From a virus (lineage: Duplodnaviria > Caudoviricetes), in the IMG/VR virus record IMGVR_UViG_3300030090_002418, positions 1-29,426 of that record: a DNA stretch of 29,426 bases. The stretch is one strand, 5' to 3'. This document shows positions 1 to 18,599 of the stretch, piece by piece. The notes beneath the pieces were generated by a model. The model ran no database searches. It was given only the letters and a program-made list of their open reading frames with translations, and had not been told where the DNA came from. The first letter of the stretch is position 1. Each line of letters opens with the position of its first letter. A program made the translations under genes and the position numbers.

Positions 1-34
1 TTCCAAACCTATAAAAATTAACATCTAACTTCAT
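1..34 (-). CDS. 5' end of a hypothetical protein running off the window (MKLDVNFYRFG...)
   Basis: ATG at 34 preceded on the minus strand by the SD-like GAGAGGAAGG; open to the window edge. Confidence 0.55.
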   Translation of the reverse strand, partial: MKLDVNFYRFG

Positions 35-52
35 TATTTACCTTCCTCTCTA

Positions 53-220
53 TTAGTTATTAACATCTATCTTTATAATATCTTCAATATAAAGATTATC
101 ATTTTCAATATCGTCTTTAATATAACCTTGAGCATTATATTCCATATCTTTAACAGATTGTTCAGCTACATCATTAACTACGATTACTACTCTAAAACTA
201 CATCTTTTATCTTTTTTCAT
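53..220 (-). CDS. small hypothetical protein, 55 aa (MKKDKRCSFRVVIVVNDVAEQ...IKIDVNN)
   Basis: Translated by hand, absent from the ORF track; SD GAGAGGA; ATGA overlap with the upstream gene. Confidence 0.7.
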   Translation of the reverse strand: MKKDKRCSFRVVIVVNDVAEQSVKDMEYNAQGYIKDDIENDNLYIEDIIKIDVNN

Positions 221-372
221 TTTTTTTGTCGTTCCTCTCTATTTTGTTTTTTAAATAAAATTAATTTCTTATCCATACTTAAACCTGTATATAGTGAATA
301 ATCTTTTGCGCCTGTGTATACTCTTGCAAAATCTTTTACAAGTTCATCAGTCCATTTAAATTCTTTAGCCAT
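217..372 (-). CDS. small hypothetical protein, 51 aa (MAKEFKWTDELVKDFARVY...)
   Basis: Translated by hand; SD GAGGAAGG; overlaps both neighbours. Confidence 0.7.
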   Translation of the reverse strand: MAKEFKWTDELVKDFARVYTGAKDYSLYTGLSMDKKLILFKKQNREERQKK

Positions 373-535
373 TTTTAGCCCCTTCCTCTAAAGCTTTTAC
401 TCTTTCTTCTAATTGGTAAACTATATCAAATAGCTGAATTGTAAAATCTTCTAATTTTTCTATTTCAGATTCAACAGTTATTGATTGATTTGTATCTTGA
501 TATGTTTGTGTTAGCTCTTTGTATGTTGCTTTCAT
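365..535 (-). CDS. small coiled-coil hypothetical protein, 56 aa (MKATYKELTQ...LEERVKALEEGAKNG)
   Basis: Translated by hand; SD GAGGAAGAG; abuts the upstream stop; heptad pattern at the C-terminus. Confidence 0.7.
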   Translation of the reverse strand: MKATYKELTQTYQDTNQSITVESEIEKLEDFTIQLFDIVYQLEERVKALEEGAKNG

Positions 536-832
536 TTATTTACTCTCTTCCTCTAGGTCCCATTTTTCGGACCTTGTTAGTTCATTGTTGTATATTCTTT
601 CATAGATAATTTTTGATAATCTTCTTCTATGTGTCCCATCTAGAGAACTATACCAATCACCAAAGTTTTTTTGCATCATTTTAAATTTACCAATTGCATA
701 GTCCCCGTAATCAGTTTCTTTCGTTCTATTATGCATTTGTTTTATGTATTCATCACCCATTACATTAAAAGACCATTTGCGGGCTTCGTATAATGTCCTT
801 TCAATGGTAGTTTTTATTTCTTTTTCTTCCAT
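536..832 (-). CDS. hypothetical protein (MEEKEIK...; probable start 832 rather than 847)
   Basis: ORF track; SD GTGAGG lies just upstream of ATG 832. Confidence 0.75.
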   Translation of the reverse strand: MEEKEIKTTIERTLYEARKWSFNVMGDEYIKQMHNRTKETDYGDYAIGKFKMMQKNFGDWYSSLDGTHRRRLSKIIYERIYNNELTRSEKWDLEEESK

Positions 833-833
833 A

Positions 834-1097
834 TTATTCTTCCTCACTTTCGCAGTAACATTCTTCTATTTTTTCTTCGCAATCATCACAGGCTTCTACT
901 TCTTTTTCTTCTACATCTAGTGGAGTCCAAAATTCTAAACAAAAGCTATTCCAACATTCTATGTCCCCGCAGATATATGTTGAATACGGGGTTTCCGATA
1001 TTTCTGTTTCTTCTATGTTTCTACCACAGCCATAGTTACAGCTGTAATCTTCTGTTGCGGTGTCCCAACCATTGACTACTTTTATTTTAGTTAGCAT
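834..1097 (-). CDS. acidic Cys-rich hypothetical protein, possibly metal-binding
   Basis: CxxxC, CxxxxC, CxxC and CxC clusters; SD GTGAGG; TAATG coupling. Confidence 0.75.
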   Translation of the reverse strand: MLTKIKVVNGWDTATEDYSCNYGCGRNIEETEISETPYSTYICGDIECWNSFCLEFWTPLDVEEKEVEACDDCEEKIEECYCESEEE

Positions 1098-1288
1098 TAT
1101 TTAGCCTCACTTTCTTTTATACTTATGCATTCCCAACAATTATCTGTATCCATTTCTTCTTCGCCATTATGTATTCCATCATCAACATTACGCATAGCCT
1201 CATCTTCACTTGTTGCATATGTAACATATCTATATTCTCGGCTTTCAGCCATTATTATTATATATTTTTTACGTTTCTCTTTTAACAT
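1097..1288 (-). CDS. hypothetical protein (MLKEKRKKY...; probable start 1288)
   Basis: ORF track frame; SD GTGAGG before ATG 1288; YxxxAxSEDEA pattern common in small phage early proteins. Confidence 0.7.
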   Translation of the reverse strand: MLKEKRKKYIIIMAESREYRYVTYATSEDEAMRNVDDGIHNGEEEMDTDNCWECISIKESEAK

Positions 1289-1289
1289 A

Positions 1290-1712
1290 TTATTTAGCCT
1301 CACTTTCATTATAAAACTCATCAGGCTCTTCAACTATCTTTTCTATAACTTCTTTAACTTTGGCTCTATCAGTTCTGTATTTGTCTAGCTTTTTATCATT
1401 GTCGTATAAAACTTTGTAATCACTACTTTTTGGTAACATCATTTTATCACCTCTTAAAGTTCCGTAAATATCATGATTCCAGACACCAACTACTTCTATC
1501 TCTTCAAAGTCAAATACATTGCCCTTTTCGTATGATTGCGTAAGTCCCAGCAATCCTTCTACACCTTCTAGTTTGTGATTAACTACATATTCAGTAAATA
1601 TCCAATCAAGTAAATCTTTCTTAGACATTTCTTTCATATGGTCGTTTTTAGTGAGATACTTCTCTAGTCCGTTACCGAACTCTTTTCTCATTTTTTCTAT
1701 ATTCTTTTCCAT
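1290..1712 (-). CDS. hypothetical protein, 140 aa (MEKNIEKMRKEFG...), directly downstream of the hammerhead
   Basis: SD AAAGGA before ATG 1712; the longer 1763 start would run through the ribozyme. Confidence 0.75.
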   Translation of the reverse strand: MEKNIEKMRKEFGNGLEKYLTKNDHMKEMSKKDLLDWIFTEYVVNHKLEGVEGLLGLTQSYEKGNVFDFEEIEVVGVWNHDIYGTLRGDKMMLPKSSDYKVLYDNDKKLDKYRTDRAKVKEVIEKIVEEPDEFYNESEAK

Positions 1713-1730
1713 TTTCTTTTCCTTTATATT

Positions 1731-1806
1731 GCGGTTTGTCTCATCAGTAATACAGATAACCACTCTGTATTATATACCCACAATTTAGATTGTAGGTATT
1801 TCGACA
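1731..1806 (-). ncRNA. type II hammerhead ribozyme with loop I / 3'-tail pseudoknot
   Basis: Minus strand reads UGUC-GAAA-UACCUACAAU-CUAA-AUUGUGGGUA-UA/UAAUACAGA-GUGGUUA-UCUGUAUUA-CUGAUGA-GACA-AACCGC. Core CUGAUGA and GAAA are intact; stems I (9 bp), II (4 bp) and III (11 bp) pair; cleavage triplet AUA. Confidence 0.93.
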
Positions 1807-1962
1807 TTATTTTACGTTTTTAAGGACCTTTTTTAACCTATCTAGGTCTTGGTTGCTTAACCTATCAATTGCGCCTGTATTGATTGCTTTTACAAAACCA
1901 AATATATCTTTTTTTGTGATATTATTTTCCATACTTACAAAACTTGTTTTTTTCTTTACCAT
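1807..1962 (-). CDS. small hypothetical protein, 51 aa (MVKKKTSFVSMENN...)
   Basis: Translated by hand; SD AGGAAAGG; its stop codon abuts the 5' end of the hammerhead. Confidence 0.7.
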   Translation of the reverse strand: MVKKKTSFVSMENNITKKDIFGFVKAINTGAIDRLSNQDLDRLKKVLKNVK

Positions 1963-1963
1963 A

Positions 1964-2107
1964 TTACTTTCCTTTCCTTTTTTTATAAATGACCATTAAT
2001 CTTTCTAGGATTTCTTCATCTCTTGCATTAGTAACCATTCCCTGTCCTTGAATTTTTAATTGATAATATTTTATTGTTCTTTCTAATTCTTCTTTTCCTA
2101 TAAACAT
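1964..2107 (-). CDS. small hypothetical protein, 47 aa (MFIGKEELERTIKYY...KRKGK)
   Basis: Translated by hand; SD AGGAAAGG; 1-nt gaps to both neighbours. Confidence 0.7.
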   Translation of the reverse strand: MFIGKEELERTIKYYQLKIQGQGMVTNARDEEILERLMVIYKKRKGK

Positions 2108-2108
2108 A

Positions 2109-2297
2109 TTACTTTCCTTTCCTTTTATTTAATCTAATAATTTCTTTATTTAATCTAATAATTTCCCTACATAGCCTGTCGTGCATATCTCTTAATAAAT
2201 TATTTTCATTTTCTATTATTTTTTCCATTGCTTTTTTCTCTGCTTTTACTGCTAATTCTACCATGTTTATACTTTCAAATTTCTTTACCATATTCAT
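2109..2297 (-). CDS. small coiled-coil hypothetical protein (start uncertain: 2297, 2291 or 2264)
   Basis: ORF track; no clear SD at the upstream starts. Confidence 0.6.
   Translation of the reverse strand: MNMVKKFESINMVELAVKAEKKAMEKIIENENNLLRDMHDRLCREIIRLNKEIIRLNKRKGK
2124..2165. repeat. perfect 21-bp tandem duplication encoding the heptad EIIRLNK twice
   Basis: tttatttaatctaataatttc at 2124-2144 and 2145-2165. Confidence 0.9.
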
Positions 2298-2299
2298 AC

Positions 2300-2334
2300 A
2301 AAAAAAACCCGCACAAATTAATGCGCGGGCTTTT
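2300..2334 (-). terminator. intrinsic terminator
   Basis: Minus strand GCCCGCGCA-TTAATT-TGTGCGGGT followed by a T tract; the G-U pairs form only on the minus strand. Confidence 0.85.
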
Positions 2335-4131: not shown

Positions 4132-4332
4132 ACGAAAACATTACATATAAGCTACGTAAGATTATAATGTTGCAATTTTTACAGAATTTTCAACCTAGTC
4201 AGAGGGGTCATACAGGCACACATAGGGGGGGGTCTTACGGTAAAAAACACCCACACACATTCTAATACTATTTTTAAAACTTTTCCTTTACTTTATAATT
4301 ATTATACTAATTATAGCTGTTTTGGTGAGTTT

Positions 4333-4546
4333 TGGGTAGAGACTATCTAATCCCCCTATTATAAATAAAGAGATTAGTCTCAATTCCCATATAGCTGTTT
4401 CGGAGCCTGTTTCTTATGGTAGGGTAATCTTTTCTGTTACTAGCTCAATTACCTTCGACTTGCTTCTGACTGTGTAACTAATCCCCTTCTAGTAGTCAAT
4501 TGTTGTGCGCTATACGCTAGAAGTGTCTAACCAACCCATATAGCAT
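4333..4546 (-). ncRNA. candidate structured non-coding RNA, divergent from terS
   Basis: No ORF; 14-bp hairpin with three minus-strand-specific G-U pairs (4347-4377); further stems; upstream promoter-like element. Confidence 0.4.
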
Positions 4547-4550
4547 GGCA

Positions 4551-4608: not shown

Positions 4609-5364
4609 ATGGAATTAAAAAAGATAAAAGGCGTAGAACACAGACTTTATGATAGTTATGATGAGTTTAAGGCCTTTCAGGGCGCATTAACGCCCAAAAA
4701 TGACTGGCGTCAGGCAAATGAAGGTGATTGGGTATATACAGATGACCATTATGTCGTGCAAATTCTTAAGGTATACTACATTACAGTGCCGAACTCTAAA
4801 GAAAAACGCAAGTGTGTGCGCACTATATGTGGTAGTTTTGTCTGTAAGCAGAAAAATGCTAAGATATTAGGCGAAAATGGCGTTGCAGACAACATTTACA
4901 CGTTTTCTGGCAATTATGAGTCTATAAATAAAATACGTTCTACTAAATTATCTTCTAAAAAGCTATTGTTTGCTAAATATGTAGCCGCAGGTATAGATAT
5001 GGAAGAAGCATACAGGCGTGTGTACCCAAAAGCAAACGATACGCAGTATATCCGCAATGCGGCTAACAAATTATTACAACAAAAAAAGGTAATGCAAATG
5101 GTTAAAGAAGAAATATCCTTAATTTTAAAAGAAGAGGGTGTAACACCAGAGTATATTATACAAAAGTACAAAGATATAGCAGACGTTTCTGAAAGAGACC
5201 AAGACAGGCTTAGAAGTCTAGATGCACTAGCAAAGATGTCTGGTTTATTTGAAACAGAAAAGAAACGTGAAGAATTAACTGTATGGGCTGGTTTTAGCCC
5301 TGAACAACTGGAGGCTATTAAAGGTGGAGAAACCAAAGTACTTGCACATAAAGAAAAAGAGTGA
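4609..5364 (+). CDS. terS: terminase small subunit with an N-terminal extension
   Basis: C-terminal half fits the SF6/SPP1 G1P-type TerS pattern (KKLLFAKYVAAG..EEAYRRVY..AANKLL; TPEYII; RLRSLDALAKMSGLF); first gene of the packaging operon. Confidence 0.7.
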   Translation: MELKKIKGVEHRLYDSYDEFKAFQGALTPKNDWRQANEGDWVYTDDHYVVQILKVYYITVPNSKEKRKCVRTICGSFVCKQKNAKILGENGVADNIYTFSGNYESINKIRSTKLSSKKLLFAKYVAAGIDMEEAYRRVYPKANDTQYIRNAANKLLQQKKVMQMVKEEISLILKEEGVTPEYIIQKYKDIADVSERDQDRLRSLDALAKMSGLFETEKKREELTVWAGFSPEQLEAIKGGETKVLAHKEKE

Positions 5365-5563
5365 GTTGTCTAATAAGATAGACCCTTGCCCTGTATGTGA
5401 AAAAAACCTGTATTATGACGAAAACGCTAGTAAAAGAATAGGCGTTATCGAAGAAGACGGTGAGATAAATTCATGGAAATGTCCTGCTTGTAAATCAGAG
5501 TTTGATTTGGAAGATAATATTTTGTATATTTATGGCAGCGAAACAGAAGGTGGACATGCATGA
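5324..5563 (+). CDS. small zinc-ribbon protein (start may be TTG 5366)
   Basis: CPVC...CPAC pairs. Confidence 0.7.
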   Translation: MEKPKYLHIKKKSELSNKIDPCPVCEKNLYYDENASKRIGVIEEDGEINSWKCPACKSEFDLEDNILYIYGSETEGGHA

Positions 5564-5847
5564 AAACTAAAGATGCAAGATTAAGAAGAGCTGGAGTTAG
5601 TGGTTATAACAAACCTAAGCGTACTCCTGGTCATCCTAAAAAATCCCATATTGTAGTGGCTAAAGAGGGTGATAAAGTAAAAACTATAAGATTTGGCCAG
5701 CAAGGCGTAAAAACCGCTGGTAAACCTAAAAAAGGCGAGTCGCAAAGACAAAAAAATAGAAGAAAGTCTTTTAAGGCTAGACATGGTAAAAATATTGCTA
5801 AAGGCAAAATGTCTGCAGCATATTGGGCTAATAAAGAAAAATGGTAA
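5560..5847 (+). CDS. conserved basic phage protein (KTIRFGQQG / SFKARH / SAAYWANKxKW family)
   Basis: Motifs recognised from many aquatic phages; ATGA overlap; function unknown. Confidence 0.85.
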   Translation: MKTKDARLRRAGVSGYNKPKRTPGHPKKSHIVVAKEGDKVKTIRFGQQGVKTAGKPKKGESQRQKNRRKSFKARHGKNIAKGKMSAAYWANKEKW

Positions 5848-5856
5848 GGAGATTAT

Positions 5857-6015
5857 ATGCCTAGAAAAAAATCAGGACTATACGCTAACATACATGCAAA
5901 GCGTAAAAGAATTAAAGCAGGTAGTGGCGAAAAGATGCGTAAACCTGGAGCAAAAGGCGCTCCTACAGCTAAAGCATTTAAAAAAGCTGCAAAAACAGCT
6001 AGGAAAAGAAGATGA
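5857..6015 (+). CDS. small Lys/Arg-rich conserved phage protein, 52 aa (MPRKKSGLYANIHAKRKRIKAGSGEKMRKPG...)
   Basis: Translated by hand, absent from the ORF track; SD AAGGAG; GLYANIHAKR motif; ATGA overlap with the next gene. Confidence 0.85.
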   Translation: MPRKKSGLYANIHAKRKRIKAGSGEKMRKPGAKGAPTAKAFKKAAKTARKRR

Positions 6016-6260
6016 TAGATAAAAAAATTTCTGTAGGGTCTATTCTTACAATAGCTTCAGTTATTATTGGAGCAGCAGTGTCTTATGGTATCAACTCTAA
6101 TAAAGTTGAAAACATTAAAACTGAACAGGTAAAAACTGTTAAAAAAGTAGAAACTAATGAAAAAAGTATTGTTAACTTAAAAGTTAGCGTTGCAAAGATA
6201 GAAACACAACTAGATAATAGATTTGATAGATTAGAAGAAATATTAATGGACCTTGAATGA
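6012..6260 (+). CDS. single-TM plus coiled-coil membrane protein, holin-like or lysis accessory
   Basis: N-terminal hydrophobic helix (ISVGSILTIASVIIGAAVSYG) then heptads; upstream of the endolysin. Confidence 0.6.
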   Translation: MIDKKISVGSILTIASVIIGAAVSYGINSNKVENIKTEQVKTVKKVETNEKSIVNLKVSVAKIETQLDNRFDRLEEILMDLE

Positions 6261-6442
6261 TAGTATCTAAATTAATAATAAACGCTGTAGCTAAACATTT
6301 TAGTTTAGATAAAATTATGAAATATGTATTTGAAGATAATGAATTAGATAAAAAAACAAAAGAACTTGAAGGTAGAATTGAGTTATTAGAAGTATTACAG
6401 AAAATGCCTAGAAAATTTAAGTGTGATTGTAAAAATGAATAA
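6257..6442 (+). CDS. hypothetical protein, 61 aa
   Basis: ORF track; ATGA overlap. Confidence 0.7.
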   Translation: MIVSKLIINAVAKHFSLDKIMKYVFEDNELDKKTKELEGRIELLEVLQKMPRKFKCDCKNE

Positions 6443-6818
6443 AAATTTACAAGATATAAAAAATCCATTAATATTAGATTTGATTGATTCATTTTTTAAT
6501 TCAACATATAATGAGGAGCTTATTAAAAATCCTTGGCTTGAAAATTATTTATATAACCCAGTAAATATTAATGGAGAGCCAGCAACAGTTTACTCTACAT
6601 CATACAAAACTAAAGATGGAAAAGAAAGAGTTATTCCTACAATTCTTCCAAATTTTACAAAAAGTGAAGGATTTTTAAGTTTAATACCTGATGTAGAAGA
6701 TGCTATAAATATAAATAAAGAATATGGTTACGGTATAGATTTTGATAATTTAAATACTGCTAATCTTTTTTCAATGTGGTTATCAAATAAACACAAAAAC
6801 TTATTGGAAGGAAAATAA
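6435..6818 (+). CDS. hypothetical protein (probable start ATG 6435)
   Basis: ORF track frame; fills the gap before the endolysin; very AT-rich. Confidence 0.7.
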   Translation: MNKNLQDIKNPLILDLIDSFFNSTYNEELIKNPWLENYLYNPVNINGEPATVYSTSYKTKDGKERVIPTILPNFTKSEGFLSLIPDVEDAININKEYGYGIDFDNLNTANLFSMWLSNKHKNLLEGK

Positions 6819-6820
6819 TA

Positions 6821-7219
6821 GTGCCAAGATTTGGAAGTAGGTCAAGAAAAAATTTAGCAACATGTCATGAAGATTTACAGGATTTATTTAATGAAGTTAT
6901 TAAACATGTAGATTGTTCTGTTATTGAAGGACATAGAAGTAAGGAAAGGCAAAACAAACTTTATGAAGAAGGTAAAACTAAAGTTAAATACCCAAATGGT
7001 CGTCATAACGCTAGTCCTAGTAGGGCTGCTGATGTTGTTCCCTATCCTATTGATTGGAATGATAGAGAGCGTTTCCACCTTTTTGCTGGCTTTGTCTTGG
7101 GCATTGCTCAATCTATGGAAATAAATATTCGTTGGGGAGGCGATTGGAATAAAAACTTTGAGGTAGATGATAATAATTTTGATGATTTTCCTCATTTTGA
7201 GCTTATAAAGGATTTTTAA
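6821..7219 (+). CDS. endolysin, peptidase M15 family (T5-like L-Ala-D-Glu peptidase)
   Basis: EGHRSKERQ, Zn ligands H..(RAA)D, IRWGGDW and DFPHFEL motifs. Confidence 0.92.
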   Translation: MPRFGSRSRKNLATCHEDLQDLFNEVIKHVDCSVIEGHRSKERQNKLYEEGKTKVKYPNGRHNASPSRAADVVPYPIDWNDRERFHLFAGFVLGIAQSMEINIRWGGDWNKNFEVDDNNFDDFPHFELIKDF

Positions 7220-7220
7220 T

Positions 7221-7655
7221 ATGAAACAAAAACAAGCAGGATATGATTACGAAGAGTTCAAGTCTCAACCTTATCGTGAGCGTAATTTATTAGAAGCTTT
7301 ATATAACTATACTGCATACGGTGTGTCTCCTAGTGAGTTAAAAGGCGCACACTCAGATATAGATAAATTAATAGAAAATGCAGACCCTAAAGCTAAAATA
7401 GCTGAAGTTGCAACTATATCTATGAATAGAGACCTAGAAAGATTATTTAGAGTTTTGAACCCAGATAGCACAGTAAAAATGATTTCTGTTCTTGGAGACA
7501 GATTTCTTGATGATGAACAGTTTGGCAGCTTAGACGCTGGTCTTCGTGCTAGAGCTATTCGTTCTATGAATGAAAGGCCAGAATATAAAGGGATGGATAA
7601 GAATTTAGCTGCATTTTTATTAGCGGCAGCAAGAAACAACCCTTATCAACCTTAA
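7221..7655 (+). CDS. hypothetical protein, 144 aa
   Basis: ORF track; SD AAGGA; TAATG coupling to terL. Confidence 0.75.
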   Translation: MKQKQAGYDYEEFKSQPYRERNLLEALYNYTAYGVSPSELKGAHSDIDKLIENADPKAKIAEVATISMNRDLERLFRVLNPDSTVKMISVLGDRFLDDEQFGSLDAGLRARAIRSMNERPEYKGMDKNLAAFLLAAARNNPYQP

Positions 7656-9211
7656 TGGCCAATTTAAATCTTAATGGTAATGTTAGTAAAAATGAGGAAG
7701 CTCTTCATTTAGCATACAATGATTTAATTACATTTGGCAAATTATTTAGCCCACAAGACTTTTTAGCATCAGCAACACCTGATTTTCATAGGCAAGTTGG
7801 TGAATTATTTTTAAACCCACAAAAACAGCAATTAGCACTTGTGTTACCTAGAGACCATGCAAAGTCTACTATGGCTGCTACTGCTATTATGCATAAGTTT
7901 TTGTTTGCAAGTAAAGATGAACCTCAATTTATAGCATGGGTAGGTGAAGCACAGGACCAGGCTGTAGATAACATTTCATGGATTCAAAATCATATTTATA
8001 GTAATCCAGCTATACATTACTACTTTGGAGACCTTGAAGGTGATAAATGGACCAAAACAGAGTTTACACTTAAAAATGGTTGTAGAATGATTGGTAAAGG
8101 TGCATCGCAAAGATTAAGGGGTAAAAAGCAAAACTCTACAAGATATACTGGAATTGTGTTAGATGACTTTGAATCAGAGCTAAATACTAAAACGCCTGAC
8201 TCTAGACGTCAAATAAAAGAATGGGTAACAGCTGCGGTATATCCAGCTATTGATTTTGATAAAAAAGGATTTTTATGGTGTAATGGAACTATTGTACATT
8301 ATGATAGTTTTTTAAATGGACTAGTGACTAAACATCAAGAATGTCAAAAAACAGGTGAAGAGTTTGCCTGGGAGGTGTTTACTAGAAAAGCTATAGAAGA
8401 TGGTAGTCCTATATGGCCCTCTAGATGGCCTATTAAAAAACTAGAAGAACGTAAACAGTTTTATATAGATTCAGGCACACCTGCAAAGTTTTACCAAGAG
8501 TACATGAATCAGGCTAAATCGCCTGAAGACCAAATATTTAGCGAGGAAGATATAAATAATGCACAGTATAAAGGTTATGCTAGGTATGACCAAGAGTATG
8601 ATTCTTGGTATATTAAAATGGATGACGGGAGACAAGAGTACGTTAATATATACATTGGTGTTGACCCTGCCTCAACAGTTGGTGTTAGGAACGACTATAG
8701 TGTTATTATGGTTATTGGCGTTACTGATAGCTATGATTACTATGTTATTGAATATTGGAGGGAACGAGTTTTACCGATGGACTGTGCAGACAAGATATTT
8801 GAAATTGCAAAACGATACCAGCCGATACGAAGAATAAACATAGAAACAATTGCATACCAAGAAATGTTAAGAGACTATGTTATGAAACGTAGTAAAGCAG
8901 AAGGAATGTTTTTACCAGGCATAGAAAAAGGTATTAAGAATTACAATCAAAAGAAAAAGGATAGATTATTTGAAGGGCTTCAGCCAATGTTTAAAGCAGG
9001 CGCTGTACATATTAAAAAAGAAATGCATGAATTTATAGGTGAGTTGCTTGATTTCCCAAAAGGAAGTCATGATGATACTATTGATGCGTTTTGGCTTGCG
9101 ACACAGTTTGCTAAAGGTCAACCTAAACGTAAAAAGAAAAGTAAAAATAAATCTGGCGTTTGGACAAAACCACGTAAAGCATATAATTGGTTGACTGGAG
9201 CTAGGAAATAA
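7655..9211 (+). CDS. terL: terminase large subunit
   Basis: Walker A-like PRDHAKST, Walker B GIVLDDFE, coupling motif GT, RNase H-like nuclease motifs IGVDPA and HDDTIDA. Confidence 0.95.
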   Translation: MANLNLNGNVSKNEEALHLAYNDLITFGKLFSPQDFLASATPDFHRQVGELFLNPQKQQLALVLPRDHAKSTMAATAIMHKFLFASKDEPQFIAWVGEAQDQAVDNISWIQNHIYSNPAIHYYFGDLEGDKWTKTEFTLKNGCRMIGKGASQRLRGKKQNSTRYTGIVLDDFESELNTKTPDSRRQIKEWVTAAVYPAIDFDKKGFLWCNGTIVHYDSFLNGLVTKHQECQKTGEEFAWEVFTRKAIEDGSPIWPSRWPIKKLEERKQFYIDSGTPAKFYQEYMNQAKSPEDQIFSEEDINNAQYKGYARYDQEYDSWYIKMDDGRQEYVNIYIGVDPASTVGVRNDYSVIMVIGVTDSYDYYVIEYWRERVLPMDCADKIFEIAKRYQPIRRINIETIAYQEMLRDYVMKRSKAEGMFLPGIEKGIKNYNQKKKDRLFEGLQPMFKAGAVHIKKEMHEFIGELLDFPKGSHDDTIDAFWLATQFAKGQPKRKKKSKNKSGVWTKPRKAYNWLTGARK

Positions 9212-9220
9212 TACTATATT
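9191..9220 (+). promoter_or_regulatory. promoter for a possibly leaderless portal transcript
   Basis: TTGACT (9191-9196), 18-nt spacer, TATATT (9215-9220); ATG at 9228; no SD at normal spacing. Confidence 0.5.
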
Positions 9221-9227
9221 ATATACT

Positions 9228-11252
9228 ATGATACAAGAAGATTTAAGAGTAAAAGAAATAAATGAGTTGTTTGATAGATGGAGAGATGCCAGACAAGACT
9301 GGGATGTAGCCGCTAGAGAAGACATTGACTTTTATTTAGGTAATCATTTTTCACAATCAGAGCTTGATGAACTAGATTCACGCAATCAGTCATCTATGCC
9401 TATGGATAGGTTGTATGCTGCAATAGAACAGTTTAAAGCAATTGTTACATCTAAACAACCTAAGTTTAGTGCAGTAGGTAGAGAAGACTCTGATAATAAA
9501 ATAGCAAACGTATGGAAGACTATATTAGAATATGTATGGGACAAATCAGATGGTAACGAAGTATTTAAGCAAGTTGTTCATGACTACGCTGTTACTGGTC
9601 TTGGTTATTTTTATGCATATCTAGATAGAGATGCTGATTTTGGTAGAGGTGAAGTTAAATTTACTTACGTAGACCCTTTTAGAGTTTATGTAGACCCTAA
9701 CTCTAGACATAAATATTTTGATGATGCTTCAGGTATTATAGTGTCAACTATATTAACAAGACAGCAGTTAATAGATTTATATCCACAAATGAGTCAACCC
9801 ATAAGTGAAGACTCAGAAAAATTATTAATAGATGAGATAGAAACATTTAACAAGGAGGAGGACTATCCTGATGCAACTAATAGAACGACTATGGAAAGCT
9901 TTACGCCAGATAATACAAAAGATAAAGACTATCATATTGAAAAGTATAGATTACTTGAACATTACAAAAAGGTAAGAGTACCTTATTATAGAGTTGTTGA
10001 CGCTAGAACTGGCGATGAAAGAATAATGACTCAAGAACAGTTTGCTGCAATGGCAGAAGATAGAGACTTTGCTGCAGCTATAAAGTCTGGACTTATTGAT
10101 TTTGTTGAAGTAACACAAACAAGAATTAAGTTAACATGTACTGTTGGTCAAATAGTATTGTATGAAATGATATGTGATACAGATATATATCCTGTTATAC
10201 CAGTACCAAACATATGGACCAACACACCATACCCAATGAGTGATGTAAGAAAGAATAAAGCATTTCAAAGGTTCCTCAACAAGACGGTTTCCCTCATTAC
10301 ATCACACGCACAGGCTTCAGCAGGTTTGAAGCTTTTAGTTCCCCAAGGTAGTGTTAGTGATATTGAAGAACTAGAACGAGATTGGGCGAATCCTAATGCT
10401 ACTATCGAATATGACCCATCTTTTGGGGAACCTCATTTTCCTTCACCACAACCATTATCAGGTAGTATTTTAACATTACCTAAAATGATTGAAGGCTATA
10501 TTGATTTAAATATTGGTATATTTGAAATGATGCAAGGTAGTACAGATGCAGCACCTAGAACATACTCAGCTACTATGATGATGGAGAATGTTGGACAAAG
10601 ACGTTCAAAGTCTAAGTTAAGAGATATTGAAGGGTCAATGAAAAGATTAGGTCAAGTTATATATAATATGGCTAGACAACACTATAGATTTAAAAAGACG
10701 TTTAGAATAGTACAACCTAACAATGATATAAGCGAGTTCACAGTAAATGCTCGTTTATACGATGATAAAACTAATGAGTTAATGTCAATTGAAAATGATA
10801 TTACAGTAGGTCAATTTGATGTGCGCATACTTGGAGGTTCTACATTACCATCTAATAAGTATGGTGAGTTCCAATTATACATGGAAGCTTATCAAGCAGG
10901 ATTGATAGATAGAGTAGAAGCACTTAAAAAGACTGAAATCTTTGACAAAGAAGGAGTATTGCAAAGAACTGACGAAGTTAGTAAATTACAGGGTATGCTT
11001 GCACAGGCGCAAGAACAACTTAAAAAGCTTTCAGGCGACTTACAAACTGCAGATAGAGAAAGTGTTGCAGCTAGAAAACGTACTGAAGTTGAGAAATTTA
11101 AAAGCCAACTGGCCGAGCAGAAGTATGAATCTCGTGCCGCTAACAAATTGGCAACAGGTAGGTTAAAAGACGCAGTGAAACTTGAATCCGAGAGATTACG
11201 TGTAAATGGTAGTCAAACTCAAAAAGGTGACGAGACATTGCAGGAAGGATAA
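9228..11252 (+). CDS. portal protein, P22-like
   Basis: Follows terL; DIDFYLGNHF, VTGLGY and VYVDPNSR motifs; long C-terminal coiled-coil barrel. Confidence 0.9.
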   Translation: MIQEDLRVKEINELFDRWRDARQDWDVAAREDIDFYLGNHFSQSELDELDSRNQSSMPMDRLYAAIEQFKAIVTSKQPKFSAVGREDSDNKIANVWKTILEYVWDKSDGNEVFKQVVHDYAVTGLGYFYAYLDRDADFGRGEVKFTYVDPFRVYVDPNSRHKYFDDASGIIVSTILTRQQLIDLYPQMSQPISEDSEKLLIDEIETFNKEEDYPDATNRTTMESFTPDNTKDKDYHIEKYRLLEHYKKVRVPYYRVVDARTGDERIMTQEQFAAMAEDRDFAAAIKSGLIDFVEVTQTRIKLTCTVGQIVLYEMICDTDIYPVIPVPNIWTNTPYPMSDVRKNKAFQRFLNKTVSLITSHAQASAGLKLLVPQGSVSDIEELERDWANPNATIEYDPSFGEPHFPSPQPLSGSILTLPKMIEGYIDLNIGIFEMMQGSTDAAPRTYSATMMMENVGQRRSKSKLRDIEGSMKRLGQVIYNMARQHYRFKKTFRIVQPNNDISEFTVNARLYDDKTNELMSIENDITVGQFDVRILGGSTLPSNKYGEFQLYMEAYQAGLIDRVEALKKTEIFDKEGVLQRTDEVSKLQGMLAQAQEQLKKLSGDLQTADRESVAARKRTEVEKFKSQLAEQKYESRAANKLATGRLKDAVKLESERLRVNGSQTQKGDETLQEG

Positions 11253-11255
11253 CAA

Positions 11256-11978
11256 ATGAGTGACGCATATGAAAACGGACATCTAGAAGGTGAAACCGTT
11301 GATAATGTAGGGCAAGACGAAAGTGTTAATACGCAGGAGACTTCTGGAAACTGGGAAGAACAAGCAAAGTACTTCCAAAGTGAAAAGGATAAACTCGCAG
11401 CGGAAAACTCTAAACTAAAGCAATATGAAAAAATAGGGCAATTATTGGAATCTCGTCCAGATATAACCCAGACCATAACTGGTATGGTACAAGGACAAGG
11501 TCAACCAGCACAACCTGAACGTATTGAATTAGCTAAAGATGAATTTGACCCATGGGAAGCCTATAATGACCCACAGTCTAAATCGTACAAGTTCAGACAA
11601 CAAGAACTACAGGACTCTATAAATGGAGCTGTTAACCAACAAATGCAAGGATTACAAAGAAATCAAGGCGAAATGCAGTTAAAGACCGAACTACAACAAA
11701 GAGGCTTAAGCCCAGAAGAAGTAGACTCTTTTATGAATTTTGCAGCACAAAATCCTGCTGAGTATGGTGTTGATGGCGCTATTAAAATGTGGAGAGCTGT
11801 AGCTAACTCTGAACAAGGCCAGCAAATAGAAAGACCACTTGATAGTGTACGTCAAACACAAGGAACACCTGCTCAAGGCGGTGTATTACAAGGACAAGCT
11901 CCTCAAACTCCTAAGTCTGACGAAGATGCTATGTGGGATGGTATTTTAAAAGCTGGTAGTCGTACTAATGTATTGTAA
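11256..11978 (+). CDS. capsid scaffolding protein
   Basis: Between portal and capsid; acidic/Gln-rich, with a coiled coil (KYFQSEKDKL). Confidence 0.7.
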   Translation: MSDAYENGHLEGETVDNVGQDESVNTQETSGNWEEQAKYFQSEKDKLAAENSKLKQYEKIGQLLESRPDITQTITGMVQGQGQPAQPERIELAKDEFDPWEAYNDPQSKSYKFRQQELQDSINGAVNQQMQGLQRNQGEMQLKTELQQRGLSPEEVDSFMNFAAQNPAEYGVDGAIKMWRAVANSEQGQQIERPLDSVRQTQGTPAQGGVLQGQAPQTPKSDEDAMWDGILKAGSRTNVL

Positions 11979-12005
11979 ATTATAATATAACTTAGGAGAA
12001 AAAAA

Positions 12006-13346
12006 ATGGCTAATTATGAAACAGGCCAAGTAAAATTTGGTACTCCTGGCGGCAATACAGTAGACAGTGCAAATTTAAGCACAAGAAGACTGTATGACTT
12101 TAGTGATAGAATTGCTGAGTTAGCCCCAGAAGAGTCACCATTTTTTGTATACTTGTCAAATGTAGGTAAAGTACCTACAGCAGACTCGCAATTTAGATTT
12201 TTAGAAGATAGAACTAAAATTGCAATGACTGATAGAAGCTTTACTACATCAAGTAATCTTGGTGCTATAGCAGAAGATACTACAGACACAATGACTATAT
12301 CTTCATCACCATGGATAATTAAAGGCATGGTACTTATGGTTTCATCTACTATATCTGGTATGGGTGAAGGAACAAATGCAGCAACATGTGTTGTTACAGG
12401 CGTAAATTCAGCAACAGAAATAGAAGTTAGATGGTTACGTGAAAACTCAACATCTGCAGTTACTATTGATGGTTCTGGCACAGCAGTTAAATGCCAAGTA
12501 ATTGGAACAGCATTTGCAGAAGGTTCTGGAGCGCCAGATGTGTTTTCACAAAAGTTAGACAATGATTATGGTTTTACTCAAATATTTAAAACTGCATGTG
12601 AAATGTCTAATACAGCTAGAGCTACTGTGTACAGAGGATATGCTGATGAATGGCAAAGAATATGGAATCTTAAATTAAGAGAACATAAAATTGACATTGA
12701 AAGAGCAATGTTATTTGGACAAAGAGCTTCTGTTGGTGGCGTTCAATACAGTGAAGGTATTGTAGGTCATATTATTGCTGAAGGTGCAGCTCCTGCGGTA
12801 GACAATACTCAACTTTCTTATACAGAAGGTGCAGCTTATCATAAATCTATAGCTTCAGGCAATATGACATATGATAACTTTCTTTCTGATTTAGAAGTTG
12901 TTTTTGACCCTGCAAGAGGCGGAAGCGCATCTAAATTAGCATTATGTTCATTACCTGTTATATCTCTATTTAATAAAATAGGTGGTAGTTCTTTTATAGA
13001 TGATTCTTTTGGTGGTACAGAAGATAATCCTGGAAGATACATGTTTGAGCGTTCTAATGGAACTTTTGGTCATAAAATAATGAAGATTGAAACAATTCAT
13101 GGTGATTTATCACTTGTGAAAGAACCTTTATTTAGAGGTTTAGCTTCAACATTTATGGCTTTAGTTGATTTAGACCACGTATCTTACAGACCATTAGTTG
13201 GTAATGGTATTAATCGTGATACATCAATTACAACAAATGTGCAACAAGCAGATGAAGATTTAAGAAAAGATATGATTCTTACAGAAGCAGGTCTTGAAAT
13301 AACTCTTCCTGAAACACATGCGTTGTTTAACATAGAAGGAGCTTAG
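12006..13346 (+). CDS. major capsid protein (SU10-type / DUF5309-like, HK97 fold)
   Basis: Strong SD; LAPEESPF, NDYGFTQIFK, EHKIDIERAMLFG, IETIHGDL and ILTEAGLEI motifs. Confidence 0.9.
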   Translation: MANYETGQVKFGTPGGNTVDSANLSTRRLYDFSDRIAELAPEESPFFVYLSNVGKVPTADSQFRFLEDRTKIAMTDRSFTTSSNLGAIAEDTTDTMTISSSPWIIKGMVLMVSSTISGMGEGTNAATCVVTGVNSATEIEVRWLRENSTSAVTIDGSGTAVKCQVIGTAFAEGSGAPDVFSQKLDNDYGFTQIFKTACEMSNTARATVYRGYADEWQRIWNLKLREHKIDIERAMLFGQRASVGGVQYSEGIVGHIIAEGAAPAVDNTQLSYTEGAAYHKSIASGNMTYDNFLSDLEVVFDPARGGSASKLALCSLPVISLFNKIGGSSFIDDSFGGTEDNPGRYMFERSNGTFGHKIMKIETIHGDLSLVKEPLFRGLASTFMALVDLDHVSYRPLVGNGINRDTSITTNVQQADEDLRKDMILTEAGLEITLPETHALFNIEGA

Positions 13347-14253: not shown

Positions 14254-15441
14254 ATGCCTTTAGGATTAGGTAGTAACTTATCAAGAGCAATTTCTAAACC
14301 TATAACACCTGGTATAGTAACAGATAACCTCGTACTAAAGCATAAGTATGATGCAGGCAGTGTAGTACCTATAAGTGATGGTTCTGTATATACTAATGGT
14401 GTTAGTGATAATATTAATTTTGGACCTTTAGATATGCCTTCTGGCGCATTTACTATTGGAGGATGGTTTTGGTTTGCTTCAGGACAATTAGAAGAAAGAC
14501 CCACTTTAATAGGAAGAGCTACATGGGCAGGAACAACAAAAGGATTTATACTTAGATTTAATACTGATTCTTCTGCTAGCGACACAACCGCTTTGCATGT
14601 AACTATGGGAGATGCAACTTCTAGCGGAAATAATCAAACTGATGTATATAGTACTACTATTGTAAGGGACCAGTGGAACCATATAATGTTAACAGTAGAT
14701 GGTGAAGCTTCTGGTTCTAAAACTTTAAAATGTTATTTAAATGGAGCTTTAGACTCTACGCACACTTCAGTGCATTATGTTCCAGACGATACTTCAACAA
14801 CTGATTTTTTAATTCATAAAGCAGATAATATGAATGCTGCAGATTCAGAAGTAAAAGGTTATGTGTGCAATTGTGCTTTATGGCAAACAGATTTAACACA
14901 AGCACAAATTAAATCTATAATGAACAAGAAGTATGCTGAATTAACAGACAGCGAAAAAACAAACTTAGTATCATGGTGGAATTTAGATACAGCTTATGAT
15001 TCAATAGTATTTGATAATCATCATAATGGCGGTGAAACACTGGGGTCTGAACTATTAACTAGTTGGACTAATAACGATTTTACTTCGTTTTCTTCGAATG
15101 GAACTGATATAACATCAGCTGTAAGTGATGGTAGTGGAAACCACGAAATATACAGTAATCAAATAGATATAACTGCTGGAGACACGTTTAAAGTAACTTT
15201 TACTATTGGTGGTAATGCTGGTTCTGGTTTAGATTTTAGATTAAGTCCACATTCTCATTTAGGTAGCGCTGATTATGATACTTCAGCTTTATCTGCTGGA
15301 ACTTATGAATATTATATTAAATCTGGAATTACCGATAGTACATCGTTTTTTGGATTTCGTTCAGCTAATCAAACTTGTGATTTTTCTATATCAAATTTTT
15401 CAGTAAAAAAAATAAACGGTAATACGGGGAAACTTACATAA
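14254..15441 (+). CDS. LamG/concanavalin A-like domain virion protein
   Basis: FTIGGWF, QWNHIMLT, CYLNGAL and LTQAQI motifs. Confidence 0.8.
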   Translation: MPLGLGSNLSRAISKPITPGIVTDNLVLKHKYDAGSVVPISDGSVYTNGVSDNINFGPLDMPSGAFTIGGWFWFASGQLEERPTLIGRATWAGTTKGFILRFNTDSSASDTTALHVTMGDATSSGNNQTDVYSTTIVRDQWNHIMLTVDGEASGSKTLKCYLNGALDSTHTSVHYVPDDTSTTDFLIHKADNMNAADSEVKGYVCNCALWQTDLTQAQIKSIMNKKYAELTDSEKTNLVSWWNLDTAYDSIVFDNHHNGGETLGSELLTSWTNNDFTSFSSNGTDITSAVSDGSGNHEIYSNQIDITAGDTFKVTFTIGGNAGSGLDFRLSPHSHLGSADYDTSALSAGTYEYYIKSGITDSTSFFGFRSANQTCDFSISNFSVKKINGNTGKLT

Positions 15442-18400
15442 TGGCAGCTACAGTACAAACAATAGTAAAACCAACACGAGCTAGAGGATTAGATACTTCT
15501 GGTAACAAAAATCATGCACAATTATATTCAGGTAGAGCATTAGAGTTTGATGGTGTTACTGATTATTTAACCACTGGTTATGATTGGGCTGATGACTCTA
15601 TAACAGTTTGTGTTTGGGCTAAACATTTTGAAGATAGCGGCTCAAAAACAATTTTTGATACAAGACAAGCTAATGATTCAGGAATGGCGTTACGATTTTC
15701 TACTACTGAAAAATTAGACTTTTTTATAGATACTAGCGACATAAATTATAATGACTATACTTTTACTAATAGATGGGTTAGGATATGCGCTGTATATGAC
15801 AAATTAAATCAAAAACAAACCTTGTATATAAATGGTGTAAAAGTAGCAGAAAAGACTAGCGTAGATATGAGTGCAATCCCTGATTCGGCAACAACTAATG
15901 GTTGCACAATCGGAGCAAGGTCTATAACTGCTCATCAAAATTATTATAATGGATATTTGTCTGATTTACAAGCATGGAATGTACCTTTTTCTGCAGATGA
16001 CGCATTATACGATTATCTTAATCCAGAACAATTAGCATTAAATAGAGGTGGTACATCACTAACTAACTCTAATCTTAAACTATGGTACCCAATGAATGAA
16101 GGGCATAGAGGTAATCAGTCTTATGTACTTGATGCTTCTAATACAGGTGTTGGTGATGATATTGTAAACTGGAGTTCAACTTTTAATGCTAGTGGAACAT
16201 CAACTGATGATTTTGGTAGTTGGACTACTAATGCAAATGACTCTACTACATTTTGTACATTTGACCATGATAATAAAACTATAAGACTTAGAAGCACTGA
16301 CGGAACTCATTTACAAGCAAAATATAGTCCAAATATTATGCGAGAAGGTATAATGTATAAATTTGAATATACTGTAAGCAAATTAACATCAGGAAGTGTA
16401 AGAGTAAGGCCACAAGGTAATACAGACTACACAAATCATACAGAAGTTGGAACATATAGTTATATTACTACTCCTGCAAGCTCAAGTGATTTAGTCTTTC
16501 GAATAGAAAGAGGTTTAACTAGTGGAGCAAATGATTTTACTGTTAGTGATGTTAAGGTATACCCAATAAACAATAAATATAACGCAACAACTGTATTTTA
16601 TGGTGATGAACTAAATACAACTACAAATAATAGAACTTTTGCAGGTAGTGGTGATTGGGCAGCTTATAATGGTACAACAGTAGATGTAAATAGCACAGTT
16701 GCTGGTAAGATGCATATTACATTTGAGGGAGATGGTACATCACAAGGTGCGCAACTTACTATAGGAAATATGGGTGGCACAATAGTTGCTGGAAGAAAAT
16801 ATAGAATAGAAGCAGATTTAGATTATATTTCAGGAGCAGATACAGATATAAAAATTAAGTTTTGTATTGGAGGAACTAATGATGCTACTTGTGTAGTAAG
16901 CGCTACTGACGGAAGTCCTAGTGATGGTGGAATTACTACAACAGAAGAAACGTATTATTCTGAAGTTGTTGCTGCAAATAGTACAGGAGCGTTATTAATT
17001 TTAGCTAAATCTGCTGAAAATGATAATGCTTCAGACCCTGCTTTAATTACTGTTGATAATGTATCAGTTAAAGAAATAGGTATAGCATCAGGATGGACAG
17101 ATGCAGACCAACAACTTGATATACCTCAAACAGCTTTGCAATCTTATAATCAATTGACTTTTTTTGATGGAAAGGATAATTATTACCAAACTTCTTCTGA
17201 TATAACTCCTGGAGACCATACTTCGGTTTCATTTTGGGTTTTTATAAATCAAGGTGGAGCAGACGACTCTTATGGCTTACTTAGAGCAGGAACTTATGGA
17301 GACCAAAATTTTAGAATATTAGGTCAAACAGATAAAATAGATATTGTAACTTACAATGAAGATGAATCTACTGTAACTGAAACTCATAGTTTTGCTACAA
17401 CTGTTGAGTTAGGACAGTGGCATCATATAGCAGCTTATATACCAAGGCAGTCTGGAAATTCTGCTATTTTATATTTTAATGGACAAAAATTAACAACTGA
17501 TGCAATGGCTAGAGATATGAAAGTTGAAGCTCATAATTGGAGATTAGGTTTGGGTTATGGTATTACATATCAATATCTTCAAGGAGCTATGACAGAATTT
17601 AGTTATTTTAATGTAAAATTAACTGATGATGAGTTTTTAGAATTATACAATAACGGAAAAGTTCTTAATGCTTTAGACCATTCTCAAGCAGGCAATTTAG
17701 TGCATTATTGGAGAAACGAAGGTCTTGGTAATTGGAATGATTTAAAAGGCAGTAATAATTTAACTGCTGCTGGTTCTCCAACAGAAACAATGCTTATTAC
17801 AGCAGGTGTAGACAGTTCAAGAGATTCACAAGGGTTTTTTATGAATAGGCCAAGAACTACTAATAGTTTGAATAACAATACTATAATAGATGGAGATATT
17901 GATAGAGGTGCTTATAGTAAAGTAGAAACTCATCCACTTTATACAGGAAGTGTTGTAACAAATTATAGTATATCTTTTTGGATGAAAATAGGTATAAAAC
18001 CAAGTGATTTTTTATCTTCTGGTAATAGTTTTTCTTTATTTGATACTACAATATCTAATTCTATTAGAGCCTTTAGAGCAAGTTTAAATCATAATAATAT
18101 ATTATATATGTATACATACTATGGCACTTCTGCAGGTAATGAATCAGTTTATTGTGATTACGATTTAGACAGTTTAGGTGGTTCTATAGTAAACCCTCCA
18201 ACCGCAAGTAATAATGGAATTGGAGAAGCATTTGACCCAAATAAATGGTATCACGTTACCTGGACATTTGACCATGATAGAACTACAGGAAGTGGTAATG
18301 CAGACAATACAAATGCTGAAGACCATAATTTTACACCCTATTTTGTTTATATTAATGGAATACAGGTTGCTGCAGAAGGAAGAGAAGGGGCTAATTCAGC

Positions 18401-18599
18401 AATGACTACAGCTCGCTCTATGTTAAATTCAAATGTTCCTATGATAATAGGTTCCGATATGGCAACTGGTGGAAATCCTTCAGAAACAAGTTATCAAGAT
18501 TTTCCAGGTGAAATAGATGATGTATGTTTTTATTCAGATACATTGACAGATGAAGAAGTATTAAGAAATTATAACGCAGGTAAAAGGAGTCACAAATAA
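15441..18599 (+). CDS. large multi-LamG fibre/decoration protein, 1052 aa
   Basis: Three LamG-like units (ITVCVW..YING; SVSFWV..QWHHI..YFNG; SISFWM..KWYHV..YING..GEIDDV) plus two jelly-roll-like inserts. Confidence 0.8.
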   Translation: MAATVQTIVKPTRARGLDTSGNKNHAQLYSGRALEFDGVTDYLTTGYDWADDSITVCVWAKHFEDSGSKTIFDTRQANDSGMALRFSTTEKLDFFIDTSDINYNDYTFTNRWVRICAVYDKLNQKQTLYINGVKVAEKTSVDMSAIPDSATTNGCTIGARSITAHQNYYNGYLSDLQAWNVPFSADDALYDYLNPEQLALNRGGTSLTNSNLKLWYPMNEGHRGNQSYVLDASNTGVGDDIVNWSSTFNASGTSTDDFGSWTTNANDSTTFCTFDHDNKTIRLRSTDGTHLQAKYSPNIMREGIMYKFEYTVSKLTSGSVRVRPQGNTDYTNHTEVGTYSYITTPASSSDLVFRIERGLTSGANDFTVSDVKVYPINNKYNATTVFYGDELNTTTNNRTFAGSGDWAAYNGTTVDVNSTVAGKMHITFEGDGTSQGAQLTIGNMGGTIVAGRKYRIEADLDYISGADTDIKIKFCIGGTNDATCVVSATDGSPSDGGITTTEETYYSEVVAANSTGALLILAKSAENDNASDPALITVDNVSVKEIGIASGWTDADQQLDIPQTALQSYNQLTFFDGKDNYYQTSSDITPGDHTSVSFWVFINQGGADDSYGLLRAGTYGDQNFRILGQTDKIDIVTYNEDESTVTETHSFATTVELGQWHHIAAYIPRQSGNSAILYFNGQKLTTDAMARDMKVEAHNWRLGLGYGITYQYLQGAMTEFSYFNVKLTDDEFLELYNNGKVLNALDHSQAGNLVHYWRNEGLGNWNDLKGSNNLTAAGSPTETMLITAGVDSSRDSQGFFMNRPRTTNSLNNNTIIDGDIDRGAYSKVETHPLYTGSVVTNYSISFWMKIGIKPSDFLSSGNSFSLFDTTISNSIRAFRASLNHNNILYMYTYYGTSAGNESVYCDYDLDSLGGSIVNPPTASNNGIGEAFDPNKWYHVTWTFDHDRTTGSGNADNTNAEDHNFTPYFVYINGIQVAAEGREGANSAMTTARSMLNSNVPMIIGSDMATGGNPSETSYQDFPGEIDDVCFYSDTLTDEEVLRNYNAGKRSHK

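What the first reader, a model, noticed from the sequence alone, without database searches (positions are those of the whole stretch)
1731..1806. Complete pseudoknotted type II hammerhead ribozyme inside the leftward gene array
Seen: on the minus (coding) strand the 94-nt gap between two small genes is almost filled by a hammerhead. Stem II is UGUC/GACA (open), followed by GAAA, an 11-bp stem III with a CUAA loop and the cleavage triplet AUA. Stem I is a perfect 9 bp, followed by CUGAUGA. Loop I GUGGUU can pair with the 3' tail AACCGC. Established: this loop-tail pseudoknot characterises natural type II hammerheads, and hammerheads are known from phage intergenic regions, though their role there is largely unresolved. 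Inference: cleavage between 1773 and 1772 would cut the polycistronic mRNA 34 nt after the upstream stop. That leaves a hairpin-protected 5'-OH leader about 60 nt before ATG 1712, uncoupling the stability or translation of the downstream eight or more genes. The upstream stop codon abuts stem II, so a terminating ribosome could gate folding.
Basis: partly seen in the sequence, partly recalled or inferred. Interest (0 to 1): 0.85.

Follow-up and report, generated by a model that had tools for sequence, protein, structure and literature searches.

The report
Shuffled phage cassette carrying hammerhead ribozyme
A textbook self-cutting RNA motif (a type II hammerhead ribozyme) fills the gap between two small genes of an uncultured phage and likely splits their shared message in two; such elements have been known in phages since 2011, and here the motif is an optional passenger of one shuffled gene cassette.

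Summary
Rfam misses this AT-rich copy. A covariance model built only from 38 type II hammerheads outside this phage group scores it 50.9 bits (E about 1e-12). In 13 related phage contigs the core is invariant and all stem I/III changes keep pairing (3 compensatory pairs).

The element is optional: 8 of 13 informative relatives carry it, one copy each. It travels with the upstream small gene while the downstream gene varies. It likely cuts the array transcript into two messages with structured ends, the role proposed for phage hammerheads in 2011 (PMC3088659).

A stop codon abutting stem II is family-wide (56 of 82), but the other tightly packed junctions of this array are equally compact, so ribosome gating is neither shown nor excluded. 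Cleavage, transcription and host are untested. The scan found this kind of element before on other DNA. New member of a known kind; low interest.

The parts
1731..1806 (-). type II hammerhead ribozyme with loop I-3' tail pseudoknot
1803..1806 (-). stem II 5' strand, directly after the upstream stop codon
1799..1802 (-). core GAAA (G12-A15.1)
   Evidence: invariant in 14 of 14
1775..1798 (-). stem III hairpin, 10 bp, CUAA loop; would end the 5' product
1772..1775 (-). AUA triplet (1775-1773) and predicted cleavage site between 1773 and 1772
   Evidence: sequence plus hammerhead rules; cleavage not tested
1748..1772 (-). stem I hairpin, 9 bp, loop GUGGUUA; would start the 3' product
1741..1747 (-). 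core CUGAUGA (C3-A9)
1737..1740 (-). stem II 3' strand
1731..1736 (-). 3' tail pairing with loop I (pseudoknot)
1720..1724 (-). Shine-Dalgarno-like AAGGA, 7 nt before ATG 1712
   Evidence: sequence
1807..1962 (-). upstream 51-aa ORF of unknown function (KKDxFGF family), the cassette that carries the ribozyme
1290..1712 (-). downstream 140-aa ORF of unknown function; exchangeable among relatives
1963..1981 (-). junction repeat holding the ribosome-binding site (second copy 2108-2126); likely crossover point for cassette shuffling
   Evidence: sequence, gene maps; crossover role inferred
2303..2334 (-). terminator-like hairpin after the first gene of the array

Best explanation
This is a complete pseudoknotted type II hammerhead motif between a stop codon and a Shine-Dalgarno-like site, and it likely cuts itself without a trigger at 1773/1772, which would split the transcript of a shuffled small-gene phage array into two messages. 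Shown: the motif, its conservation with compensatory changes, its position, one copy per genome, its linkage to the upstream gene. Inferred: (1) the minus strand is transcribed through it; (2) it cleaves fast, like tested type II hammerheads; (3) only the 4-bp stem II joins the products, so they would part at once and not re-ligate; (4) the upstream message would end in the stem III hairpin with a 2',3'-cyclic phosphate, and the downstream message would start with a 5'-OH on a fully paired stem I / pseudoknot ending 18 nt before ATG 1712; (5) both ends are probably protective, so the downstream block gets its own half-life and its first gene initiates on its own instead of by coupling to the upstream stop.
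For: Motif and chance tests. Among 12 distinct rows from 14 phage contigs: core invariant, 99.4% of cells paired, 3 pairs with two-sided changes, every stem I and III change keeps pairing; slid controls pair 28-53%. It stays near-identical in phages whose first array protein is only 40-46% identical. Stems I and III are predicted at P of 0.89 or more in up to 363 nt of context; the product hairpins fold alone; stem II duplex is only -2.1 kcal/mol. Family-wide geometry: 56 of 82 distinct viral type II hammerheads have a same-strand stop within 8 nt of G12 (opposite strand 5 of 82, random positions 8.4%); 77 of 88 have an SD-led ATG within 150 nt, 72 of the 77 at 19-43 nt, median 29, window 28. 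PMC3088659 section 6: three tandem arrays cleaved 2-kb polycistronic RNAs in vitro, one also in E. coli. PMC7967978 passages: 5'-OH products are stable in E. coli.
Against: No cleavage or transcript data. Absent from 5 of 13 informative relatives, so dispensable. Without the pseudoknot, which ViennaRNA cannot model, stem II has only 0.09-0.20 probability in 150-360 nt contexts. A conserved terminator-like hairpin lies upstream and promoter-like sites do not exceed chance (22 found, 28 expected). In a host with RNase J, hammerhead products can be degraded instead. An AU-rich RiboJ variant holding an open frame cleaved poorly in context (PMC7536230 passage), and this copy is AU-rich with an open frame. 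The pseudoknot shows no two-sided change within the phage group itself.
Confidence: 0.6

Rival explanations
1. Translation-gated cleavage: ribosomes ending at TAA 1809-1807, or re-starting at the overlapping ATG 1807 and reading 27 codons through the ribozyme, keep it unfolded, so the cut depends on how heavily the upstream gene is translated.
For: Stop within 8 nt of G12 in 56 of 82 family members and 0-1 nt from stem II wherever an upstream stop was seen in this phage group. A TAATG overlap opens a frame across the whole motif (read; same frame listed for relatives); TAATG-type junctions occur elsewhere in this array. Stem II is marginal in context.
Against: 8 of the 9 other junctions of the array are as tight (-8 to +1 nt), so no special spacing is needed. 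19 of 82 family members have the stop more than 15 nt away. The overlapping frame is closed at codon 6 in L154 and L225 by a stem-preserving change, ends at different places in others, has no SD-like site, and most family members lack the ATG.
Confidence: 0.13
2. Down-tuning: the cut exposes a 5'-OH end that a host 5' exonuclease (RNase J type) degrades, lowering expression of the downstream block, as for glmS.
For: PMC7967978 passages: glmS and hammerhead products are rapidly degraded by RNase J1. The host is unknown (one search found no relative of the capsid protein in prokaryote genomes).
Against: The 3' product is predicted to begin with a 9-bp helix with no unpaired 5' base, which by recalled RNase J behaviour is a poor entry point. 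The element sits just before an SD in 77 of 88 family members, in many unrelated phages.
Confidence: 0.12
3. Near-neutral passenger: the ribozyme rides on one cassette, spreads by recent recombination, and its cutting matters little or happens rarely in vivo.
For: Missing from 5 of 13 informative relatives; the six hammerhead-free arrays examined also gave no KKDxFGF match; the same downstream gene occurs with and without it. Near-identity could reflect recent exchange.
Against: All changes in stems I and III keep pairing, 3 of them two-sided, and the core never varies. In L153 it is kept behind a different upstream gene.
Confidence: 0.12
4. One of a pair of ribozymes that excise and, with a host ligase, circularise a gene-sized RNA.
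For: Raised as a possibility in PMC3088659; other phages in the collection carry up to 5 copies within 3 kb.
Against: One copy only in the window and in each of four relatives 72-93% complete; no other ribozyme class by Rfam in the window. Type II geometry with a 4-bp stem II disfavours re-ligation (inference). PMC3088659 did not detect circles.
Confidence: 0.03

Closest known systems
Type II hammerhead ribozymes with loop I-3' tail pseudoknot (Rfam RF02276 Hammerhead_II; Perreault et al. 2011, PMC3088659)
   Same: Same topology, core, short open stem II, pseudoknot, and position between small co-oriented phage genes that vary among genomes.
   Different: AT-rich (34% GC), longer stems III and I, AUA triplet with a U-A pair closing the core (AUA in 4 of 92 clusters, GUC in 74); below Rfam's detection; single copy rather than tandem.
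RiboJ ribozyme insulators (synthetic; described in PMC7536230 passages)
   Same: A hammerhead just upstream of a ribosome-binding site that would give the downstream message a fixed 5' end whatever lies upstream.
   Different: Natural, type II, pseudoknotted, inside an operon-like array; insulation not tested here. Works like, not a member.
PeSL elements of T4-like phages (as summarised in PMC4503421 passages)
   Same: A regulatory element at gene junctions in a region where small genes are shuffled among related phages.
   Different: PeSLs are repeated promoter/stem-loop elements; here one ribozyme per genome, and the repeats at junctions are ribosome-binding-site motifs. Not a PeSL.
glmS ribozyme (PMC6765202 and PMC7967978 passages)
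   Same: Self-cleavage upstream of a bacterial start codon leaving a 5'-OH.
   Different: Different class; metabolite-dependent; no ligand site is evident here.

Membership tests
Hammerhead ribozyme | Core CUGANGA and GAAA with C3-G8 and G10.1-C11.1 | tested here: met
   invariant in 14 of 14 contigs
Hammerhead ribozyme | NUH triplet with A15.1-U16.1 between stems III and I | tested here: met
   AUA at 1775-1773
Hammerhead ribozyme | Three helices around the core supported by covariation | tested here: met
   stems I and III 100% paired with 3 two-sided changes; stem II invariant, so silent within the group
Hammerhead ribozyme | Site-specific self-cleavage giving 2',3'-cyclic phosphate and 5'-OH | not testable with these tools
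   needs in vitro transcription
Type II hammerhead (Perreault 2011) | Stems I and III closed by loops, stem II open | tested here: met
   definition read
Type II hammerhead (Perreault 2011) | Pseudoknot of 4 or more pairs between loop I and the tail after stem II | tested here: met
   6 potential pairs, 97% of cells paired in the group but no two-sided change; other AUA-triplet copies show different, still complementary loop/tail sequences; 13 of 30 pattern-independent copies have 5 or more pairs against a swap mean of 6.1, maximum 12. Formation itself untested.
Rfam RF02276 as curated | Score at or above the 37-bit gathering threshold | tested here: not met
   no match; the four close relatives given were also missed, while look-alikes in GC-richer phages scored up to 61 bits
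Type II hammerhead (own model R1) | Significant score with a model built without this phage group | tested here: met
   50.9 bits, E about 1e-12 (rough calibration); training rows came largely from a pattern modelled on the window's motif, so the test is not fully independent
PeSL-type shuffling element | Repeated promoter plus stem-loop at many junctions | tested here: not met
   single copy; promoter-like sites not above chance

The most novel reading that the evidence does not exclude
The ribozyme plus ribosome-binding site is a natural RiboJ-like insulator built into the 3' end of a mobile gene cassette: it breaks the chain of translationally coupled genes and hands any gene that recombines in downstream a fresh, protected 5' end, with ribosomes on the upstream gene timing the cut. 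Relatives with and without the cassette but sharing the downstream gene at 98% identity form a ready natural experiment on why phages keep hammerheads.
Probability: 0.2. Interest if true: 0.55.

Novelty: new member of a known kind. Interest (0 to 1): 0.22.

Why it matters
The purpose of self-cleaving ribozymes in phage operons is still open (PMC6765202 passages). This copy does not answer that, but it offers a clean comparison: single copy, fixed place in the array, present in some relatives and absent in others that share the downstream gene. It also shows that Rfam RF02276 misses AT-rich, AUA-triplet members, so counts of phage hammerheads from Rfam are low. The phage is uncultured and its host unknown, which limits direct tests to reporters.

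Tried and rejected
Rfam scans of the window, of 1700-1830 and of the record with RF02276: no hammerhead hit. PHROGs and Pfam: no significant family for any gene of the leftward array. Cultured relatives: best terminase matches only about 25% identical. Host: no relative of the capsid protein in prokaryote genomes. Expression: no RNA holder listed; the one run offered is contigs of uncertain kind and covers intergenic and coding pieces alike, so no evidence either way. A conserved leader peptide across the ribozyme was rejected: the frame is closed at codon 6 in L154 and L225 and ends variably. An internal promoter at the TATAAT inside the motif was rejected: it is not among the scan's sites and reads TATAGT in 12 of 14 rows. 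A second weak model hit at 4368-4461 (10.3 bits, E 0.32) was rejected as a hammerhead. One search used a pseudoknot mis-registered by one column and is superseded. Alignment A2 (63 rows) was too poor; 38 of those rows that aligned well were realigned as A3, and the other 25 were dropped before model building. The 'clade' label printed was too loose; I counted 13 of its 21 rows as this phage group by sequence. No look-alike finding in the scan's relatives index.

Full report
Observation. A descriptor scan for all three hammerhead permutations on both strands finds this one site only: type II, stem II 4 bp, stem III 10 bp plus A15.1-U16.1, stem I 9 bp, H17 at 1773. Of 200 dinucleotide shuffles of the window, 0 gave a strict match and 2 a loose one. 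The 96-nt stretch folds into the three-way junction at -23.1 kcal/mol, z -3.64. The gap between ORF 1807-1962 and ORF 1290-1712 is 94 nt. The predicted cut is 34 nt after the stop and 60 nt before ATG 1712.

Membership. Rfam does not call the site. A pattern search returned 138 viral loci. In 12 of those loci Rfam gave 24 matches to RF02276, 14 of them above the gathering score, all in other phages; the four close relatives of the window among the 12 were missed. I built a covariance model from 38 copies outside this phage group (25 of 63 rows were dropped for poor alignment). It scores the window's copy 50.9 bits, E about 1e-12, with the next hit at 10.3 bits. The training set came largely from a pattern modelled on this motif, so the test is not fully independent. 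The copy is an AT-rich variant with the rarer AUA triplet (4 of 92 clusters). That AUA sites can cleave well is recalled, not checked.

Conservation. Thirteen related phage contigs carry a near-identical copy (mean column identity 96%). On 12 distinct rows, 99.4% of cells pair, 3 pairs change on both sides, and no change in stems I or III breaks a pair; structures slid by 1-3 columns pair 28-53%. The tool warns that related sequences can beat its shuffles without structure, and 4 cells is a small number. The pseudoknot is 97% paired but shows no two-sided change within the group; its outer pair is broken in 2 of 12 rows. Other AUA-type copies have different, still complementary loop and tail sequences. 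Among 30 copies that did not match the search pattern, 13 have 5 or more possible pairs, against a partner-swap mean of 6.1 and maximum of 12. A metagenome scan added 13 rows of the same group out of 21, some the same records as the viral set.

Setting. The window is 60% of a tailed-phage genome by CheckV, with terminase, portal and head genes on the plus strand. The ribozyme lies in a leftward run of small genes with no family assignment. Calling these early genes is inference from their size and orientation. In relatives the run starts with the same first gene and terminator-like hairpin, then 1-5 variable genes, the ribozyme, then more variable genes. At least four different gene families follow the ribozyme. 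The gene before it is of the KKDxFGF family in 13 of 14 contigs; 15 of 16 distinct KKDxFGF matches are followed by the ribozyme at 109-125 nt, although most of those loci were fetched through the ribozyme pattern. For an unbiased count I took 28 contigs found by an unrelated conserved site and searched them with the model: 9 of 28 match. By my reading of the contig coordinates, 13 of the 28 extend at least 3.3 kb towards the array; 8 of these 13 have the ribozyme and 5 do not. The ninth match is on a shorter contig, and the other 14 are too short to tell. I checked the gene maps of the five negatives: the array is there, without ribozyme or KKDxFGF match. L141 has the downstream gene at 98% identity behind an ordinary junction repeat. 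Four relatives 72-93% complete hold one copy each, and a fifth, more distant one holds none. So the unit that moves is upstream gene plus ribozyme plus ribosome-binding site.

Family geometry. From all loci then held I extracted 140 distinct type II motifs in 92 clusters. Of 83 clusters with enough upstream DNA, 82 had an ORF end, and 56 of these lie within 8 nt of G12 (opposite strand 5 of 82; random positions 8.4%). Of 88 with downstream room, 77 have an SD-led ATG within 150 nt, 72 of them at 19-43 nt; the window's 28 nt is near the median of 29. ORFs were called by a simple rule, and the set is biased by the search pattern. The window is thus a typical member. The tightness is not special to the ribozyme: 8 of the other 9 junctions in this array have gaps of -8 to +1 nt, the exception holding the terminator-like hairpin.

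Mechanism. Most likely (0.6) it cleaves without a trigger and splits the array transcript. After the cut only stem II (-2.1 kcal/mol) would join the pieces. The upstream piece would end in the stem III hairpin. The downstream piece would begin with a fully paired stem I and the pseudoknot, which lies wholly within it and ends 18 nt before the start codon. The Shine-Dalgarno-like site is predicted to be more open in the product than in the precursor (unpaired probability of its two G about 0.6 against 0.13). Cleavage, transcription and end protection are inferred. Against: stem II has only 0.09-0.20 probability in longer contexts when the pseudoknot is not modelled; the route of transcription past the hairpin at 2334-2303 is unknown; the element is dispensable. 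Rivals are ribosome gating (0.13), RNase J-type down-tuning (0.12), near-neutral passenger (0.12) and circularisation (0.03). No usable RNA data were found and the host is unknown.

What is known. Perreault et al. 2011 (PMC3088659; passages and all of section 6 read; supplements including Dataset S1 not read, so this sequence or a relative might be listed there) report natural type II hammerheads, the loop I-tail pseudoknot and its need for fast cleavage, arrays in prophages with non-constant flanking genes, the proposal of processing into shorter mRNAs, and cleavage of three native polycistronic fragments. Weinberg et al. 2019 (PMC6765202; passages) call the bacterial roles largely elusive. 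PMC7967978 (passages) gives the host-dependent fate of 5'-OH products. PMC7536230 (passages) describes RiboJ and an AU-rich variant with an open frame that failed in context. PMC4503421 (passages) summarises PeSL shuffling. Searches (listings and abstract starts only) showed no paper that quantifies stop-codon adjacency or cassette linkage of phage hammerheads; the library lacks most subscription papers, so this is weak. The scan's own index lists 25 findings holding the search words; the eight shown are phage hammerheads, four of them type II with the same reading (unchecked notes, not support).

Verdict. A real and well-supported type II hammerhead motif, a new member of a kind known since 2011. 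The additions are modest: an AT-rich variant invisible to Rfam, a single optional copy tied to one shuffled cassette, and natural with/without pairs for testing. Interest 0.22.

Noticed in passing
window 4315-4550: About 230 nt of non-coding DNA upstream of the small terminase gene is almost invariant in 8 aligned relatives, with three pairs of short direct repeats and one inverted pair; a pattern from it finds 28 viral contigs. Neither strand folds better than shuffles (z -0.47 and +0.56) and Rfam has no hit, so a DNA-level site (packaging or origin) is more likely than an RNA.
   Followed up: partly
window 2303-2334 (-): Terminator-like hairpin after the first array gene, found in 20 of 21 related loci; the next gene often starts within a few bases of the U-run with no Shine-Dalgarno-like site. 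How the rest of the array is transcribed is unexplained.
   Followed up: partly
window 1-2297 (-): Each small gene ends with the ribosome-binding site of the next inside its last codons (C-termini such as KRKGK, ESEAK, ESEEE); gene order and content differ among most relatives, as expected for cassettes exchanged at these repeats.
   Followed up: partly
window 1724-1807 (-): The upstream stop overlaps an ATG that opens a 27-codon frame across the ribozyme; in L157, L160 and L165 it is in frame with the downstream gene, in L154 and L225 it closes at codon 6.
   Followed up: yes
L004, L042, L080 (5 each), L032, L039 (4 each), L022-L025: Unrelated viral contigs with 4-5 or more type II hammerheads within 3 kb, mostly between a stop and an SD-led ATG; better material than this window for studying tandem processing.
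   Followed up: partly
L152/L167, L159/L163, L221, L222, L227: Other phages carry the same AUA-triplet type II variant with different but complementary loop I / tail sequences, in front of larger genes.
   Followed up: partly
window 14254-18599 (+): Two proteins with laminin-G / concanavalin-like domains, probably tail or receptor-binding parts; a weak Pfam hit to a related receptor-binding fold lies under the much stronger laminin-G hit.
   Followed up: no
window 4609-13346 (+): Small terminase, endolysin, large terminase, portal and major head protein by PHROGs: a tailed phage with no close cultured relative.
   Followed up: partly
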